A stretch of 63,960 bases of DNA, the filler included, from Atractiella rhizophila (taxonomy: Eukaryota): assembly GCA_021432655.1 (NCBI GenBank). It is 4 parts of 4 records of this genome, joined end to end, with 100 filler letters (N's around TTAATTAATTAA, not from the genome) between each part and the next. Parts side by side here need not be neighbours in the genome. Positions count along the whole stretch, not along the records: positions 1 to 17,857 come from MU271869.1; 3 more parts are not named here. One strand, given 5' to 3'. Positions 3,672 through 56,598 of this stretch are shown here, in pieces (the stretch's first letter is position 1; each line of letters opens with the position of its first letter). The position numbers and the translations under genes are program-made. The notes below the pieces were generated by a model. That model saw nothing but the letters and a program-made list of their open reading frames with translations, was not told the origin of the DNA and made no database searches.

Positions 3672-6600
3672 ATGATTATCCGCGCAGCCCTATCAGTAGG
3701 GCTGCTTCTGCTTTCCTCCTTACCTCCATCGCTCGCTGTCAAACGGGGCGACTTCAAGACCTGCGACCAGTCCGGTTTCTGTAGACGCAATCGAGGCCTC
3801 TCCACGCGTGCATCGGAGCATTCGACCGAATGGAGGAGTCCTTACTTTGTCCAGACTGTTGATTCGTCAAGTGGGACTTGGAAGGGAGAGGTGAAGAACG
3901 CACTGTTTCCGGAAGTTAAGTACGAGCTCGAGATAAGGGTGTTGAGGGATGGAACTGTGCGCGTACTCTTGGATGAGAAGGACGGGTTGAAGCAGAGATA
4001 TAATGAGACCTCCCGCTGGGCTTTGGTCGAGGAACCACTACTCATGTTGGAGGGAGGCGTGCAGTTCGGCGAGAAGGAGAATGAGAGCAAGATTTGGTTT
4101 GGACGGCATAGTATGGTCCGAGTTCAGCACAATCCGTTGAAGGTGGAGTTCTTCAGAGACGGACAGCCACACGTGGTGCTTAATGAAGGCGGACTCTTCA
4201 ATATGGAACATTTCAGGGTCAAGAGCCAGAACGCCGCAGAGGAAGTGGAGGAAAAGGAAGAACAGGAGGAGGGCACGGGAGAAGGTGTAGGAGTGAAGGT
4301 CAAAGGGTTCGTGAACCAAAATGAAGAGAAGGAGAAGGTCGTGCTCCAGAAGCCACAAAAGATCAACGTCCCTGGATCCGTTGATTACCCTCACTTTCTG
4401 CCCGAAGATGAAAACGGGATGTGGGAGGAGAGTTTTGGAGGAAAAACGGACTCTAAGCCTAAAGGTTCGCATCAGTTCTCTCTTCCCACAAGAGTCTTGT
4501 TGAATATGCACAGGACCCGAATCTCTGAGTATGGATATCACCTTTCTCGGATACGAGCACGTCTATGGTATTCCCGAGCATGCTTCGCCTCTCTCTCTGC
4601 GCACCACAAAAGGTGGTGACAACGCATATACGGACCCTTACCGTTTGTTCAACCTCGACGTGTTCGAGTACGAGGCCGATTCCGAGATGGCGCTCTATGG
4701 TGCTGTGCCCTTCATGAAAGCACATCGTCCTTCTTCCACCGTCGGAGTCCTATGGTTGAACGGCGCGGAGACATGGGTCGACATTGAGAAGGGAGAGACT
4801 GGGAAGGCAGTGAAAGATTCTTGGAACGCAGGAAAGTTCAAGCATGGCGGACCGGAGGACAGGACGACGAAGACGCACTGGATGAGCGAGAGCGGTATCC
4901 TCGACCTTTTCGTCTTCCTCGGACCCTCGAATGAAGATATCTTCACCTCCTACGCTAGATTGACTGGAACTACAGCCCTTCCTCAGTACTTCGCCATCGG
5001 CCATCACCAGTGTCGATGGAACTACTTGTCACAGGAAGACGTACTTGAAGTCTCCCGCAAATTTGACGAGTTTGACATTCCAATGGATGTAATTTGGTTG
5101 GATATCGAATATGCAGAAGAGCACAAGTACTTTGTGTGGAACAAACGGTCGTTTCCTGATCCAGAGAAGATGCAGGAAGGTCTTGCGGAGAGGGGAAGGA
5201 AGTTGGTCGCGATCGTTGATCCTCATATTAAGAAGACGAACGATTTGTATGTCTATACCGAAGCAAAGGAGCACGATGTTTTGGTGAAGGATAAGGATGG
5301 AAAAGAATTTCAGGGTTGGTGTTGGACTGGTGATAGCGCTTGGGTCGACTACTTCAATCCCAAGAGCTTTGATTGGTGGGCCAGTCTCTTCAAGTTCGAC
5401 AAATTCAAGGTTTGTCTCCTCCACTTAACGAGCGGCCGAACGTCTTGGCTTACTTCGAATGAAACAGGGATCCACAAAGAACCTCTTCATTTGGAATGAT
5501 ATGAACGAGCCCTCCGTCTTCAATGGTCCAGAGATCACCTTCCCTCGTGATGTAGTACACCATGGCGGTTGGGAGAACAGGTGTGATTCCTCTCATCATT
5601 ACCAAATCTTATCACAAAACTGACGAGAAGAAAGAGACGTGCACAACATAAATGGCATGGTCTATCACAACCTGACCTCTCAAGCCTTGATCCAGCGAGA
5701 AGATACGCCGAAGAGACCTTTCGTCCTCTCACGTTCTTTCTTCGCCGGTTCGCAACGATATGGAGCCATTTGGACGGGCGATAATATGGGTTATTGGTCT
5801 CATCTTGCGCACGCACCAGCTATGATACTTGCAAACTCGATTGCAGGTATCAACTTCATTGGTGGTGAGTCTACTCACTTCCGATTTATCTCCTTCCTCT
5901 GGTAACATCATCAGTCACTGACATATGCTTTGATGGGTGAACAGCCGACGTCGGTGGTTTCTTTGGTGACCCGTCTCCTGAACTCCTCGTCAGGTGGTAT
6001 CAGATGGGTGCCTTCCACCCCTTCTTCCGAGCTCACGCACATATTGATACCAAGCGTCGGGAGCCGTATCTCTTCGACGAGCCGATCAGAGGTCATATCC
6101 GGGACGCAGTACGTCTCAGATACTCTCTCCTCCCGACCTGGTACAGCGCCTTCTTCGAGGCTAACAACCTTGGGTTTCCAATCGCCAGGTGCGCCGTTCC
6201 TACTATGTACCTTCGTGGCTCACATTCTGACGATGAATGACAGACCTCAATATGTCGTCTTCCCTGATGACAAGGATGGATTTGCTGTTGACGATCAATA
6301 TTTCATCGGAAGCTCTGGCCTTCTCGTGAAGCCTGTTACACAGGAAGGAGCGACGGAGACGAGTGTCTACCTAGCTGGAGTTGATGTGCGTTATTTTGTT
6401 CAACGCCGGCTCTTTGCTAATGAGGTTTGATATTAGCCATATTACAACTACTTTACCAACGACATCTTCTACGGTCCTGGACGCGTCGACTTTCCCGCGC
6501 CGCTCGATACTGTACCTCTCTTCCAACGTGGTGGATCCATTCTCTCGAGGCGAGACACAATCCGCCGTTCCGCTCCTTTGATGTGGAAAGACCCTCTCAC

Positions 6601-8720
6601 CTTGGTCGTCGCGATCGACAGAGACAATTCATCTGCTCGAGGACAGTTCTACATGGATGATGGCGAGTCGTACAACAATGAACAGGGGCAGTTCGTCTGG
6701 CGTCACTTCAACTTTGGACCCGACGCAGACAATAAATCCAACCTACTCTTCCACAATACTGATGGAGGTGGAATTCCTGGGACTTCTCGTTCATTACAGA
6801 AGGGAGTCGCAGTCTACGATCCAGACTACAACAACGAGTATGCAAAGGTGATGAGGGTCGTCACCGTCGACACTATCGAAGTTTTAGGTCTACCTTCAAA
6901 ACCGAAATGCCTCAAGTTGTCTGGAAGGGACCAACCTGTCCATTTCGAATATCTCGATGGCTTCAGCTCGTACGCTGGTCCGAAAAAGAGCGGAGTCGGA
7001 AGAAGGGCAAGCAAACTCATAATCAAGGACTTAAAGGCTCCGATTTCTGAGGAATGGCGCATCGAATTTGTGATGTACGGTGAGGCCTGTCAGGTCCCTC
7101 CTGCTCTTCCAGATCGTCAAACAGCTCTCCAGTCTCCGCTCTGTCCTCCCAACCACTTCCGCTGTGCCAACACAGGCCATATTCCTGCTTGCATCCTCAC
7201 TTCTCGCGTTGATGATGGGCTTTGCGACCCTGAGTGTTGCGATGGTTCCGATGAGCGAGATGGGAAAGTATCTTGTCCTAACAGATGCCAAGAGGTCGGC
7301 GCAGAGCATCGAAAGAAGCTAGAGGAAGAGAACAGGAAGTTTAGAGTGGGCGGAAAGGTTCGAGGCGATTACATCAAGTTTGGGCAGAAGGAGAAGGAGA
7401 CTCTTCAAGGCACTATCGATGCGCTTCAGGCTTCGCTCAGCACTTTGGAGGTGAAGGAAAAGAAGGCGAAGGCAGAATTGGATAGATTGGAGGCAGAATC
7501 AGCATCAGAATCGAAACGGAAGATGGAGTCAAAGCTTTACAAGAGGTTGCAGGAACACCAAACTGCCATTGCGACTCTGCGTCAACAGAAAGCCGATCTC
7601 GAGACCGACCTGGCTGAACTCAGTTCCATTCTGAATGACCTCTCGGTAGGTTGTTCTAGCCTTTCGTACTCCTTCTGACCGCCATTGATAGCGCGACTTC
7701 AACCCCAATTATCAAGATATGGCGGTCCTCGGTGCTACTCGAGCTTTTACTGAATGGAAAGAAAGCAGGGCAGCTCAGTTGGGAGAGGAGGGCATCGAAA
7801 TCGAAGGAGACGAAGACGAGGACAGCAACGATGTGACAAAGTTTTCTGACGATGACCTGGATGCGATTGAGAAGGAAGACCTGCTAGAACTTATCGACAG
7901 CCTATCCCCCTCCTCTGAAACACCTAAGCCCGCTCAGAGCCAGCCCAGTGGTCTGATAGCAACGATTGATGGATGGAAGACATCTGTGTTCAACATTTTA
8001 GAGCTTGCAGGAGTGATCTCTCAGGATGAATCGTCTTCGTCTCCTGATACGAGTGAGAGACCCGAGGTCGCAAAGGCGAGAAAGAGACATTCGGACGCTC
8101 AGGCAGAACTGGAAAAGGCGAAGAGGGAAATCGAGGATAAGAAGAAGGAGGTCGAGAAAAATTTCGGGAGGGAGTGGGAGTTCAAGAAGCTTGATGGCAC
8201 CTGTCTGGAGAAGGATACCGGAGAGTAGGTGTTTCTTGCTTCTCCCATTTAAGAGCCACGTCCTCATGGATGGTCATAGGTACACGTATGATGTCTGCCT
8301 CTTCCAGGAAGCACATCAAAAGTCGAACAAAGGTCACGGCTCCACATCACTTGGGTTCGTTTACTTCTCCTTGCTTGCACAACTCACTAATCACACCAAA
8401 CCATGAATCAGAAAATTCTCCTCCTGGTCTACAGGGGACGAATCTCCATCCTCAGACGAATACTACATGAAGCAAGTATATTCCAAAGGCGCGCGCTGCT
8501 GGAACGGTCCAGAACGCAGCGTCAAGATCGACCTCGTCTGTGGAACACAAAATGCGCTGCTTTCGGTAGTCGAACCGAACAAGTGCGAGTATTTATACAA
8601 AGGTCCGTCTTCCTTCTTTTGTTCTGAGACGTCGTTGAGATGATGGCAACAGTCTCTACCCCGGCGGTGTGTTGGCCAAGGGCTGATGCGGAGGAGACGA
8701 GGCAAAAGGAGGAACTTTGA
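3672..8720 (+). CDS. ROT2: ER glucosidase II alpha subunit (GH31) fused to glucosidase II beta subunit; 11 exons, 1497 aa
   Basis: Signal peptide, then [32 protein letters not shown], catalytic [23 protein letters not shown] and FFRAHAH. Exons 3672-4464, 4514-5409, 5468-5580, 5635-5864, 5945-6188, 6244-6385, 6437-7645, 7692-8224, 8280-8354, 8412-8602, 8653-8720. All introns are GT-AG; the exons total 4494 nt, in frame. Confidence 0.93.
7135..8720 (+). other. GTB1: Glucosidase II beta (PRKCSH/GTB1) moiety of the fusion gene
   Basis: [33 protein letters not shown], a coiled coil, [10 protein letters not shown], an MRH domain ([14 protein letters not shown]...[11 protein letters not shown]...EPNKCEY...TPAVC) and terminal KEEL. 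Confidence 0.92.
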
Positions 8721-8995
8721 ACTCACATCCACATACCAGTCTGAGCGTTGTAGATATCTATCATTCATAAGTAAGGACTCATCCATATCGCATTCAATCT
8801 CATTCAAACTTCAACGCTTCGAGTCCTTTGCAACCTTTGACATGCCTGGATTGCAAACAAAAAGGGAACGGAGGAAGAGAGGCCATGCACGAATAACACG
8901 AAGTATTGTAGAAACTCGAAATCATACAAAGACTCATATCTCCAGTCGATCAACATTTACTTTTAAGCCGTCCACACAAACCGCTCACTGGCAAT

Positions 8996-10197
8996 CTATT
9001 CCTTCTTCTTAACCACCACACCCCCCGTACCGGAACAGCTCCCCGGTCGTTGCGCCAGCTCTTTGAGAGCGCCAAGCATCGCTTCCCGCGCTTTTTCGGA
9101 AAGTAATTCGATGTCTTCGTGCGACGACGTGAAACCCTTGGTCTCTATTGGCTCCAGGACTGATGCACCACAAGACGGGGGATCAGCGACGGGAAGAGAG
9201 TAGGAGATAGGAACGCACCTTTGATATGAGCTTCACCAGGTTCGAAGAGCGAGTTTTTGAGCTGGAACATGTTCCAATACTAGGCAGAAACAAAGTTTCA
9301 TGAGCACACTGAAATATGTAAGGAGAAAGGAGTACGTTTTCACAGACCACCGGTATTATTGGCACTTGCTGTAACCATCCGCGACCTCAGTTCCTGCCAC
9401 GCTCGACCAACGGGGAAGAGAGAACGCACCGCCTGAACAGCCAAATGGAATGCTCCTTTCTTGAAGGGCAGCAAATCAGGACCTTGAGCATTGCTCCTCG
9501 TGCCCTCTACAAAGATGACTGGGCAAGTCTGCATCTCATGCATCTCCTTCGCCGCCTTCGCAAACGTCTTGATAGCCTTCTCCCTGCTCGCCCGCTCGAC
9601 CAAGATAGCCCGACTGGCCCAAAGGTAGGGGCCGAGGATGGGGAGCCACAGGAGCTCCTTCTTGGCCATGATGGACGTCCCCCTCTGCATGACCTTTCCG
9701 AGGATGAGGACGTCGATCATGCTCTGGTGGTTGAGGATGATGACGCAGGGCTTGGATTGGGTCAGACGCTCTTCGTTGTGGATGGTCAGCTTCCAGGAGA
9801 CGAGGGGCGAGGTGATGGCGTAGAAGGTACGGGCGACGTAGAGGTTGATGTTGCGCCGTTGGCCGAGGATGGGGAGGACGATGGAGAGGAAGACGCCGAA
9901 GAAACTGGTGAATGTCAACGTCGACAAGTACGCCGTCACTCTGAGCCTGGCGACCACAGCACGCAACGAATGAGCTCTGATACCCTCTCATGGCGAATTT
10001 GATGGGGGAACGCACCAATACCGCATCTTTTGTGAAAACCGGGCCAAAATCATGACAGGGATTGCCCCAAAGATCCCCCTGAGCAACCGAGTTGACAATC
10101 CAGCTCCTGAAGCGCTAGTCAGGGGGAGGGACATGAATACGCTTGCTGCTGAGTACACAAGGAGGGGGGGCAGGAGGAGGACCACCGTGCGAAACAT
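8996..10197 (-). CDS. SLC1: 1-acyl-sn-glycerol-3-phosphate acyltransferase, multi-exon
   Basis: Acyltransferase motifs NHQSMID, AKKEL, FVEGTRS, PFKKGAFHLAVQA and PIIPVVCEN. Confidence 0.92.
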
Positions 10198-56359: not shown

Positions 56360-56598
56360 GTTGCAAACTCACATTTGGGTTCACCTCGTGAGTTTGCAGT
56401 CTCGAGAGTTTGCTCTCTCGCTGTCTTGCGAGTTGGCCGTCTCGCAGGTTTGTGTCTCGCGAGTTTGCTGTCTCGCAAGTTGGCTGTCAGGCGGGTTTGC
56501 TGTCTCACAAGTTTGTTGCTGTCTCACAAGTTTACAAACTAACGTTTGGGTTCACCTCACGAGTTTGCTGTCTTGCAAGTTTGTTCTCTCACGAGTCT
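56360..56598. repeat. Degenerate ~16-bp minisatellite (consensus about GAGTTTGCTGTCTCGC) with a higher-order duplicated CAAACT..TTTGGGTTCACCTC header
   Basis: About ten imperfect units are visible; the header occurs near 56364 and 56535. Confidence 0.75.

What the first reader, a model, noticed from the sequence alone, without database searches (positions are those of the whole stretch)
3672..8720. Single-chain glucosidase II: natural in-frame fusion of the alpha (GH31) and beta (PRKCSH/MRH) subunits
Seen: the alpha C-terminus ([17 protein letters not shown], ~7020-7070) reads directly into beta-subunit sequence inside one uninterrupted exon (6437-7645). There is no stop, no intergenic space and no second signal peptide. 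The full 11-exon model is in frame and ends in one ER-retention-like signal (KEEL). Known: glucosidase II is normally a heterodimer encoded by two separate genes (ROT2/GLS2 + GTB1; GANAB + PRKCSH), with beta supplying the MRH lectin domain and ER retention. Inference: this lineage makes a ~1500-aa one-polypeptide enzyme with fixed 1:1 stoichiometry. I cannot tell whether relatives already carry it unremarked in databases.
Basis: partly seen in the sequence, partly recalled or inferred. Interest (0 to 1): 0.85.

Follow-up and report, generated by a model that had tools for sequence, protein, structure and literature searches.

The report
Single-gene glucosidase II alpha-beta fusion
This fungus encodes the two subunits of the ER glycan-trimming enzyme glucosidase II as one long protein; the fusion is real and transcribed, but it is an old trait shared by rusts, red yeasts and their relatives and already sits unremarked in sequence databases.

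Summary
An 11-exon gene (3672-8720, +) gives a 1497-aa protein. Exon 7 (6437-7645) reads without a stop from the natural C-terminus of a GH31 glucosidase II alpha subunit into beta-subunit sequence. Spliced RNA-derived contigs cross the junction in 3 of 4 public runs, and no splice or transcript end lies there.

The fusion is not peculiar to this organism. A 1497-aa Atractiella rhizophila protein differs at 15 residues. In a profile search, 38 of the 120 listed proteins carry both halves. All 36 named ones are Pucciniomycotina, from four classes. The beta halves form one clade with 100/99 support, and the break point is the same in all of them.

The beta part lacks its signal peptide and the first of its two Ca-binding LDLa-like modules. 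Only a short two-cysteine remnant is left. In human glucosidase II that first module contacts alpha residues 15 positions from the alpha C-terminus (PMC9713302). I therefore infer that a covalent tether replaced one docking module.

Catalytic motifs, the MRH lectin domain and the C-terminal KEEL are kept. I found no paper on the fusion. It is a new variant of a known enzyme, of moderate interest.

The parts
3672..8720 (+). Whole coding region of the fused glucosidase II gene: 11 exons, 1497 aa. Exons: 3672-4464, 4514-5409, 5468-5580, 5635-5864, 5945-6188, 6244-6385, 6437-7645, 7692-8224, 8280-8354, 8412-8602, 8653-8720.
   Evidence: in frame, all introns GT..AG; same length as the database protein P0002, 15 of 1497 residues differ; introns 3-10 removed in RNA-derived contigs.
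3672..3740 (+). Probable signal peptide ([23 protein letters not shown]), directly before the conserved start of the mature alpha part, KRGDFKTC.
   Evidence: Read from the sequence. 18 of 18 aligned orthologues show a hydrophobic stretch; in the 40 residues printed, 13 of them also show the conserved V(K/R)RxDFKTC after it. No signal-peptide predictor was run.
3927..4782 (+). GH31 N-terminal galactose-mutarotase-like domain (spans intron 1).
   Evidence: Pfam PF13802: E 2.3e-12 on exon 1, 3.6e-30 on exon 2.
4975..6150 (+). GH31 TIM-barrel catalytic domain (spans introns 2-4).
   Evidence: Pfam PF01055 on exons 2, 4 and 5: E 7.4e-44, 2.6e-22, 1.6e-27.
5492..5512 (+). WNDMNEP motif holding the presumed catalytic nucleophile Asp (codon 5498-5500).
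   Evidence: Sequence. W(N/L)DMNEP is present in 16 of 18 aligned orthologues; the other 2 have evident gene-model errors at this spot. The role of the Asp is recalled GH31 knowledge.
5771..5785 (+). WTGDN motif holding the presumed acid/base Asp (codon 5780-5782).
   Evidence: GDN is present in 18 of 18 orthologues. The role is recalled GH31 knowledge.
6245..7069 (+). Alpha proximal and distal C-terminal beta-sandwich domains, up to the natural alpha C-terminus (...EEWRIEF).
   Evidence: Pfam PF21365 and DUF5110. Alpha-only proteins align to exon-7 residues 1-209/212 and end there, at their own C-termini. The AF2 model matches the glucosidase II alpha chains 5dkz_A and 5jqp_A over 218-221 alignment columns, E about 1e-13.
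6548..6568 (+). Basic patch RRDTIRR. Its last two Arg align with human alpha R817 and R818, which contact the second beta module.
   Evidence: Gap-free phmmer alignment to 8d43_A. RR(D/E)xxRR is present in 18 of 18 orthologues. Contacts are taken from passages of PMC9713302.
7070..7144 (+). Junction: VMYGEAC...[12 protein letters not shown], a degenerate remnant of the tail of LDLa-like module 1. Two conserved Cys (codons 7088-7090 and 7142-7144). The Ca-ligand motif DGSDE is lost.
   Evidence: BLASTP aligns [12 protein letters not shown] without gaps to PDGSDEPGTSAC of a stand-alone beta. Alignment of 19 fused forms with 7 stand-alone betas and 2 alphas. C1024 and C1042 are invariant in 18 of 18. 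pLDDT is 82-95 over exon-7 residues 201-240.
7142..7288 (+). LDLa-like module 2 of the beta G2B domain; Ca-ligand motif CCDGSDE at 7235-7255.
   Evidence: Pfam PF12999, matching profile positions 72-171 of 176. CCDGSDE is invariant in 18 of 18. It aligns to human beta from residue 68.
7283..7642 (+). Long helical (coiled-coil-like) segment of the beta part.
   Evidence: The AF2 model has helices 283-364 and 366-402, pLDDT 81-92.
7692..8174 (+). Acidic, poorly conserved middle region of the beta part (exon 8).
   Evidence: No Pfam hit. Weak tblastn similarity to stand-alone betas.
8175..8672 (+). MRH (mannose-6-phosphate-receptor homology) lectin domain (spans introns 8-10).
   Evidence: Pfam PF13015 on exon 10, E 6.1e-17. 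PF07915 and PF13015 are precomputed for P0002. Q1400 is invariant; R1447, E1466 and Y1472 are conserved in at least 90% of 18. Calling these four the sugar-binding residues is recalled.
8706..8720 (+). C-terminal KEEL plus stop: an ER-retrieval-like signal.
   Evidence: 17 of 18 orthologues end in (K/R)(D/E)EL.

Best explanation
The window, from Atractiella rhizophila or a very close relative, carries one gene and one mRNA for a single-chain ER glucosidase II.

Order of parts: signal peptide; complete GH31 alpha subunit; a roughly 25-residue remnant loop with two cysteines; LDLa-like module 2; a long helix; an acidic region; the MRH lectin domain; KEEL.

The fusion arose once, before the split of at least four classes of Pucciniomycotina. 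The break lies inside the first LDLa-like module of beta. It removed beta's signal peptide and that module's Ca site.

Inferred mechanism: the covalent link takes over the job of module 1, which in the heterodimer docks next to the alpha C-terminus. Module 2 still docks on the conserved Arg patch of alpha. The MRH domain still presents high-mannose glycans to the active site. The single C-terminal KEEL retains the whole enzyme in the ER, so alpha no longer depends on finding a partner for retention.

Shown here: gene structure, continuity of the transcript, domain content, distribution among taxa, common break point.

Inferred: that the mature protein is uncleaved, the docking geometry, enzyme activity, and absence of separate subunit genes.
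For: Gene and frame. Domains.

Break points:
- Alpha-only proteins end at exon-7 residues 209-212, which is their own C-terminus.
- Beta-only proteins start at exon-7 residues 216-262, mostly 225-241, which correspond mostly to their residues about 65-100 (15 of the 150 listed proteins span the junction, 135 match one side only).

RNA:
- X1 contig 5 runs 7021-7644 and then 7691-8096 with intron 7 removed.
- X2 contig 12 covers 6931-7187. X3 contig 24, from a recorded metatranscriptome, covers 6952-7101.
- X22 contig 15 has introns 3-6 removed and runs to 7092. It overlaps contig 16 (7063-7309) by 30 nt.
- No joint lies inside 6437-7645. No loose end or poly(A) lies near 7070.

Distribution:
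- 23 of 29 hits cover 100% of exon 7. Twenty of them are 1437-1564 aa long.
- 38 of 120 listed rows hold both PF01055 and PF12999. All 36 named ones are Pucciniomycotina. The score then drops from 2043 bits to about 1400 bits for alpha-only Agaricomycotina.

Single origin:
- The fused betas form one clade, 100/99, with 0 of 17 stand-alone betas inside it.
- The Pfam PRKCSH-like match starts at profile position 70-72 in the window, in Mixia and in P0054.
- DG[ST]DE occurs once in 13 of 13 fused forms and twice in 17 of 17 stand-alone forms.

Structural rationale:
- Human alpha R929 and K930 (of 944 residues) bind beta D53 and D57. Alpha R815, R817 and R818 bind D54, N93 and D94. Assigning D53, D54 and D57 to module 1 and N93 and D94 to module 2 is my reading (PMC9713302 passages).
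- Only beta residues 25-117, with two Ca ions, are ordered in the cryo-EM structure (PMC10592444 passages).
- S. pombe beta mutants E73A and E114A lower ER alpha levels and abolish complementation (PMC3103398 passages).
- The R817/R818 equivalents are invariant here.
- The junction is modelled with confidence, pLDDT 82-95.

Functional motifs are kept.
Against: There is no protein-level evidence, so cleavage after translation is not excluded.

No whole genome is held. A separate alpha or beta gene in this genome cannot be ruled out. The only evidence against one is the absence of such proteins from protein searches of limited sensitivity.

All RNA evidence is from assembled contigs, not reads. 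The tool warns that a contig across two genes does not prove a single transcript.

In run X22 no single contig has 31 or more letters on both sides of the junction. Contig depth there is higher over the beta part (312-430) than over the alpha part (154). The tool says depth cannot be ranked, but this leaves room for an extra 3' transcript.

The docking argument borrows human contacts. The mapping of human R929/K930 onto this sequence was not obtained from a tool.

Six of the ten classes of Pucciniomycotina were not seen in any list.
Confidence: 0.85

Rival explanations
1. The gene and mRNA are fused, but the polypeptide is cut near the junction after translocation. The working enzyme would then be an ordinary two-chain glucosidase II made from a polyprotein.
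For: Nothing here tests the protein. A conserved basic pair (GRRAS / GK.AS) lies about 25 residues before the alpha C-terminus.
Against: The junction has no spacer. It is a conserved two-cysteine segment modelled at pLDDT 82-95 and continuous with the last alpha strand. The beta part has lost the module that the heterodimer needs for association, so cutting would leave a weakened complex. The basic pair is not at the junction; whether it could be a cleavage site was not tested here.
Confidence: 0.07
2. The fused gene coexists with a separate conventional beta gene, alpha gene or both. The fused protein would then be a specialised paralogue and not the only glucosidase II.
For: The genome could not be searched. 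The word-based protein searches are of limited sensitivity. The look-up of cluster members could not be made.
Against: 0 of 7 named stand-alone betas found with the beta half come from Pucciniomycotina. The 4 unnamed ones group with Ustilaginomycotina, 100/99. No second Atractiella GH31 glucosidase II-like protein is among the 120 best profile hits. The window holds only this one locus. The fused alpha and beta halves keep all the catalytic, lectin and retrieval motifs expected of the housekeeping enzyme.
Confidence: 0.07
3. Artefact: a misassembly, or two adjacent genes merged by gene prediction.
For: Merged models do occur in this family. Mixia P0213 (2122 aa) carries an extra HLH domain, and P0094 joins a beta to a cyclin domain.
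Against: There is one uninterrupted exon with no stop or intergenic DNA. The identical break point is seen in independent assemblies of more than 30 species. Contigs from three runs cross it.
Confidence: 0.01

Closest known systems
Heterodimeric ER glucosidase II (human GANAB + PRKCSH; yeast Rot2 + Gtb1; S. pombe alpha + beta)
   Same: The same domains in the same order within each half: GH31 N-domain, TIM barrel and two C-terminal sandwiches; then an LDLa-like module, a helical region, an acidic region, the MRH domain and a (K/H)DEL-type end. The Arg patch that contacts beta module 2 in human is conserved.
   Different: One gene and one chain instead of two. Beta's signal peptide and first Ca-binding LDLa-like module are missing; a two-cysteine remnant is joined directly to the alpha C-terminus. 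ER retention of alpha is built in, not dependent on assembly with beta (inference).
Unremarked fused orthologues in public databases, for example Rhodotorula toruloides P0207 (1499 aa), Mixia osmundae P0213, Phakopsora pachyrhizi P0212, Microbotryum P0014
   Same: Same architecture, same break point, 49-57% identity over the full length, one clade. Atractiella rhizophila P0002 is the same protein, differing at 15 of 1497 residues.
   Different: Nothing essential. The window's copy ends in KEEL where most end in KDEL or RDEL.
Other fungal fusions of subunits that are separate elsewhere, for example fungal tryptophan synthase alpha-beta (abstract of PMC10893352, seen in the listing)
   Same: Two partners of an obligate complex are encoded as one chain. 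This is the 'Rosetta stone' pattern.
   Different: Unrelated enzymes. Here the fusion also deleted one of the two docking modules, and there is no long linker.

Membership tests
GH31 glucosidase II alpha subunit | GH31 domain set: N-terminal mutarotase-like domain, TIM barrel, C-terminal sandwiches. | tested here: met
   Pfam PF13802, PF01055, PF21365 and PF17137. Fold match to 5dkz_A and 5jqp_A for the C-terminal part.
GH31 glucosidase II alpha subunit | Catalytic nucleophile and acid/base Asp motifs (WxDMNEP, GDN). | tested here: met
   Both are present in the window. They are present in 16 of 18 and 18 of 18 orthologues. The roles of the motifs are recalled.
GH31 glucosidase II alpha subunit | Closest relatives are bona fide glucosidase II alpha subunits, not other GH31 enzymes. 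| tested here: met
   The best PDB sequence and fold hits are glucosidase II alpha chains, ahead of maltase-glucoamylase, sucrase-isomaltase and GAA.
GH31 glucosidase II alpha subunit | Hydrolysis of Glc-alpha1,3-Glc and Glc-alpha1,3-Man on N-glycans. | not testable with these tools
   Needs an enzyme assay.
Glucosidase II beta subunit (PRKCSH / Gtb1) | N-terminal G2B domain with two LDLa-like Ca-binding modules. | tested here: not met
   Only module 2 is present. The Pfam match covers profile positions 72-171 of 176. One DG[ST]DE motif is found in 13 of 13 fused forms against two in 17 of 17 stand-alone forms.
Glucosidase II beta subunit (PRKCSH / Gtb1) | C-terminal MRH lectin domain. | tested here: met
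   PF13015. PF07915 and PF13015 for P0002. Conserved Q1400, R1447, E1466 and Y1472.
Glucosidase II beta subunit (PRKCSH / Gtb1) | C-terminal ER-retrieval tetrapeptide. | tested here: met
   KEEL in the window. (K/R)(D/E)EL in 17 of 18 orthologues. That KEEL works as a retrieval signal is recalled, not tested.
Glucosidase II beta subunit (PRKCSH / Gtb1) | Own signal peptide; a separate polypeptide that binds alpha non-covalently. | tested here: not met
   The beta homology starts at its residue 75-80, inside exon 7, with no stop and no hydrophobic leader.
Single-chain glucosidase II of Pucciniomycotina (the database clade) | Alpha C-terminus joined to the tail remnant of LDLa module 1, with conserved Cys...QS..Cys. 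| tested here: met
   Junction alignment of 19 fused forms. C1024, Q1038, S1039 and C1042 are invariant in 18 of 18. The window's beta half lies inside the fused clade.

The most novel reading that the evidence does not exclude
In Pucciniomycotina the fusion has changed how glucosidase II is held together. A peptide bond at the alpha C-terminus has replaced the Ca-dependent docking of LDLa module 1. Assembly, 1:1 stoichiometry and ER retention of the catalytic part would then no longer depend on meeting a partner, and would depend less on ER calcium. This natural single chain would also be the first handle for fixing where the MRH lectin domain sits relative to the active site. That position is unresolved in the heterodimer, because beta is disordered beyond residue 117 in the cryo-EM structures.
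Probability: 0.45. Interest if true: 0.6.

Novelty: new variant of a known kind. Interest (0 to 1): 0.5.

Why it matters
Every description of glucosidase II that I read presents it as an obligate heterodimer (passages of PMC12732852, PMC3103398, PMC10592444 and PMC9713302). A whole subphylum that makes it as one chain has four uses:

1. It is an independent, evolutionary confirmation of which surfaces of alpha and beta meet.
2. It is a natural experiment on what the first LDLa-like module is for.
3. It is a ready-made single-chain construct for structural work on the full-length enzyme, and for expression without the need to balance two subunits.
4. It is a clean molecular synapomorphy for at least four classes of Pucciniomycotina.

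It also flags an annotation problem. These proteins are named after either the alpha or the beta subunit, or as hypothetical. Several gene models are truncated or merged.

Tried and rejected
Whole-genome search for separate alpha or beta genes: not possible, because no genome is held.

Names of unnamed stand-alone betas through cluster look-up: the query could not be made, because the database is switched off. I placed those proteins by a tree of sequences already in hand instead.

An intron hidden in the junction (GTGAGG at about 7081): rejected. No joint inside 6437-7645 appears in any of the 4 runs.

Independent alpha-beta fusions elsewhere: the three long beta-containing proteins I checked (P0094, P0160, P0180) have no GH31 domain.

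Structural papers on the alpha-beta complex (PNAS 2016 and Protein Sci 2016): not held. I took the contacts from PMC9713302 instead.

Earlier notes of this scan: nothing was found by words, by sequence or by place.

Literature on the fusion. None of the searches below found a paper that describes it:
- 'glucosidase II' + fusion + Pucciniomycotina: 0 papers.
- 'glucosidase II' + Pucciniomycotina: 0 papers.
- 'glucosidase II' + 'gene fusion' + subunit: 17 papers, none on fungal glucosidase II by title or abstract.
- 'glucosidase II' + toruloides: 1 paper, on another yeast's CAZymes; seen as a listing only.
- Searches were too loose to count as evidence.
- PMC2557144, on fungal gene fusions, has no occurrence of 'glucosidase'.

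These searches cover only the held open-access library. Supplements were not opened.

Run X22 has no single contig with 31 letters on both sides of the junction. Its depth figures were not used.

No tRNA gene lies in the window.


Full report
WHAT IS THERE

Between 3672 and 8720 on the + strand lies one gene of 11 exons. All 10 introns are GT..AG and 46-80 nt long. The spliced frame is 4494 nt and gives 1497 aa. The protein starts with a hydrophobic leader followed by KRGDFKTC, and ends in QKEEL.

Pfam finds the full GH31 set on exons 1-7: PF13802, PF01055, PF21365 and DUF5110. It finds PRKCSH-like (PF12999) in the second half of exon 7, and PRKCSH_1 (the MRH region) on exon 10.

Exon 7 (6437-7645) is a single open frame of 403 codons. 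A stand-alone alpha (Clathrus, 974 aa) aligns up to nt 7063, which is its residue 970. Stand-alone betas align from nt 7109 and 7142, which are their residues 80 and 75.

IS IT TRANSCRIBED AS ONE?

I laid contigs of four public runs on 5400-8800. Each of the introns 3-10 is removed in at least one contig, so these contigs derive from RNA.

Across nt 7070/7071:
- X1 contig 5 (1030 nt) runs 7021-7644 and continues at 7691 with intron 7 removed.
- X2 contig 12 covers 6931-7187.
- X3 contig 24, from a recorded metatranscriptome, covers 6952-7101.
- In X22 a 1525-nt contig with introns 3-6 removed ends at 7092. It overlaps the next contig (7063-7309) by 30 nt. By the tool's 31-letter rule this run does not count as bridging.

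No joint lies within exon 7. No loose end or poly(A) lies near 7070.

Limits: these are contigs, not reads. Depth cannot be compared between parts of the gene. The higher figure over the beta part in X22 (312-430 against 154) is noted but not interpreted.

WHOSE GENE IS IT, AND HOW WIDESPREAD IS THE FUSION?

Exon 7 finds a 1497-aa 'glycoside hydrolase family 31 protein' of Atractiella rhizophila at 99% identity. My spliced model differs from it at 15 of 1497 positions and has the same length. The window therefore comes from that species, as another strain or haplotype, or from a very near relative.

In one search, 23 of 29 hits cover all of exon 7, and 20 of them are 1437-1564 aa long.

A profile of 18 full-length fused proteins listed 120 best hits out of 2991. 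The top 37 rows plus one fragment hold both PF01055 and PF12999. The 36 named ones are:
- Atractiella;
- many Microbotryomycetes: Rhodotorula, Sporobolomyces, Rhodosporidiobolus, Microbotryum, Phenoliferia, Meredithblackwellia, Pseudohyphozyma;
- Pucciniomycetes: Puccinia, Austropuccinia, Cronartium, Phakopsora, Melampsora;
- Mixia.

I confirmed the class for three of these by look-up. The rest rests on my own knowledge.

After these rows the score falls from 2043 bits to about 1400 bits, for alpha-only proteins of about 970 aa from Agaricomycotina. The one alpha-only rust entry (P0025) is marked 'partial'.

In the exhaustive representative search, 15 of the 150 listed clusters span the junction. 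The other 135 match only one side.

With the beta half as query, 11 stand-alone betas appeared. None of the 7 named ones is from Pucciniomycotina.

A maximum-likelihood tree of beta parts used 13 fused and 17 stand-alone sequences. It puts all fused betas in one clade (100/99) and places the four unnamed stand-alone betas with Ustilaginomycotina.

The fusion is thus old, arose once, and is present in 4 of the 10 classes of the subphylum. The other six classes were not seen in either form.

ANATOMY OF THE JUNCTION

Alpha-only proteins end 0-4 residues after the position of ...EEWRIEF. What follows, [25 protein letters not shown], aligns without gaps to the tail of the first LDLa-like module of stand-alone betas...CDCP-DGSDEPGTSAC.

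The two flanking Cys (C1024 and C1042) and the Q1038-S1039 pair are invariant in 18 of 18 fused proteins. The Ca-ligand motif DGSDE is gone. DG[ST]DE occurs once in 13 of 13 fused forms and twice, 43 residues apart, in 17 of 17 stand-alone forms. Module 2 (CCDGSDE) is invariant.

The Pfam match to PRKCSH-like begins at profile position 70-72 in the window, in Mixia and in an environmental fragment. It begins at 2-17 in stand-alone forms.

An AlphaFold2 model of exon 7 used 48 aligned sequences and reached mean pLDDT 84.9:
- The last alpha strand runs into the junction at pLDDT 94-95.
- The remnant loop scores 82-87.
- The Ca loop of module 2 scores below 50, as expected without the ion.
- A long helix follows at residues 283-402.

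The first 215 or so residues superpose on the C-terminal domains of glucosidase II alpha.

HOW IT MOST LIKELY WORKS

Established facts, from passages I read:
- In human glucosidase II only beta residues 18/25-117 are ordered, and they hold two Ca ions (PMC9713302, PMC10592444).
- The 776 Å² interface is electrostatic. Alpha R929 and K930 (of 944 residues) bind beta D53 and D57. Alpha R815, R817 and R818 bind D54, N93 and D94 (PMC9713302).
- In S. pombe, the G2B mutants E73A and E114A lower ER alpha levels and abolish complementation (PMC3103398).

By their positions, D53, D54 and D57 lie in module 1, and N93 and D94 lie in module 2. This assignment is my reading.

Module 1 therefore sits beside the last 15 residues of alpha. 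That makes the observed join (alpha C-terminus to the tail of module 1) geometrically plausible.

Human R817 and R818 map, by a gap-free alignment, to R849 and R850 of the fused protein. RR(D/E)xxRR is present in 18 of 18 orthologues. Docking of module 2 is therefore probably kept.

The catalytic motifs are present: W(N/L)DMNEP in 16 of 18 (the two exceptions are gene-model errors) and GDN in 18 of 18. The MRH residues and the (K/R)(D/E)EL end (17 of 18) are conserved as well.

I infer a working single-chain enzyme in which the peptide bond replaces module 1, and one retrieval signal serves both halves.

Not shown: that the chain stays uncut, enzyme activity, any change in Ca dependence, and absence of separate subunit genes in this genome.

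COMPARISON AND NOVELTY

As an enzyme it is glucosidase II. As a protein it fails two defining features of the beta family: a two-module G2B domain, and being a separate polypeptide with its own signal peptide. It forms a coherent database clade of its own.

The sequences are public, under inconsistent names. I found no paper that mentions the fusion in the held library (some searches were too loose). Subscription journals and supplements were not covered.

Fusions of partners of one complex are a familiar pattern, so a specialist would find this neat rather than startling. The loss of a docking module, and the use as a natural single-chain construct, give it some value.

Verdict: real, expressed and clade-wide; a new variant of a known kind; interest about 0.5.

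Noticed in passing
window 9340-9987 (-): The next gene downstream, on the opposite strand, has an open frame of 215 aa with a Pfam Acyltransferase domain (PF01553, E 4.4e-31), which looks like a lysophospholipid acyltransferase.
   Followed up: partly
window 56420-56596: A tandem array with units of 16/31-32/47 nt (GCTGTCTCGCAAGTTG-like), 67-82% matches. Its nature is unknown.
   Followed up: no
window 7224-8800 compared with 5400-7223, run X22: Contig depth figures are about twice as high over the beta-encoding part (312-430) as over the alpha-encoding part (154). The tool warns that such figures cannot rank parts of a gene. 3' bias or an extra 3' transcript are both possible.
   Followed up: no
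P0213 (Mixia osmundae, 2122 aa), residues 1919-1969: The database model of the fused gene carries an extra helix-loop-helix domain after the MRH domain. This is most likely a neighbouring gene merged by gene prediction.
   Followed up: partly
P0013, P0024, P0017, P0025, P0214 (rust database entries): There are gene-model faults in public orthologues. Intron-like text replaces the nucleophile motif in P0013 and P0024. P0017 has an aberrant C-terminus. P0025 (998 aa, 'partial') and P0214 (1240 aa) are truncated.
   Followed up: partly
P0094 (1275 aa, unnamed source): This predicted protein joins a complete two-module glucosidase II beta to a cyclin domain. It is probably another merged model. 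It is not an alpha-beta fusion.
   Followed up: partly
window 5400-8800 compared with runs X22, X1, X3, X2: All four runs differ from the window at many silent-looking positions (1-5%), and the database protein differs at 15 residues. The window therefore represents a strain or haplotype other than those sequenced in these runs.
   Followed up: no
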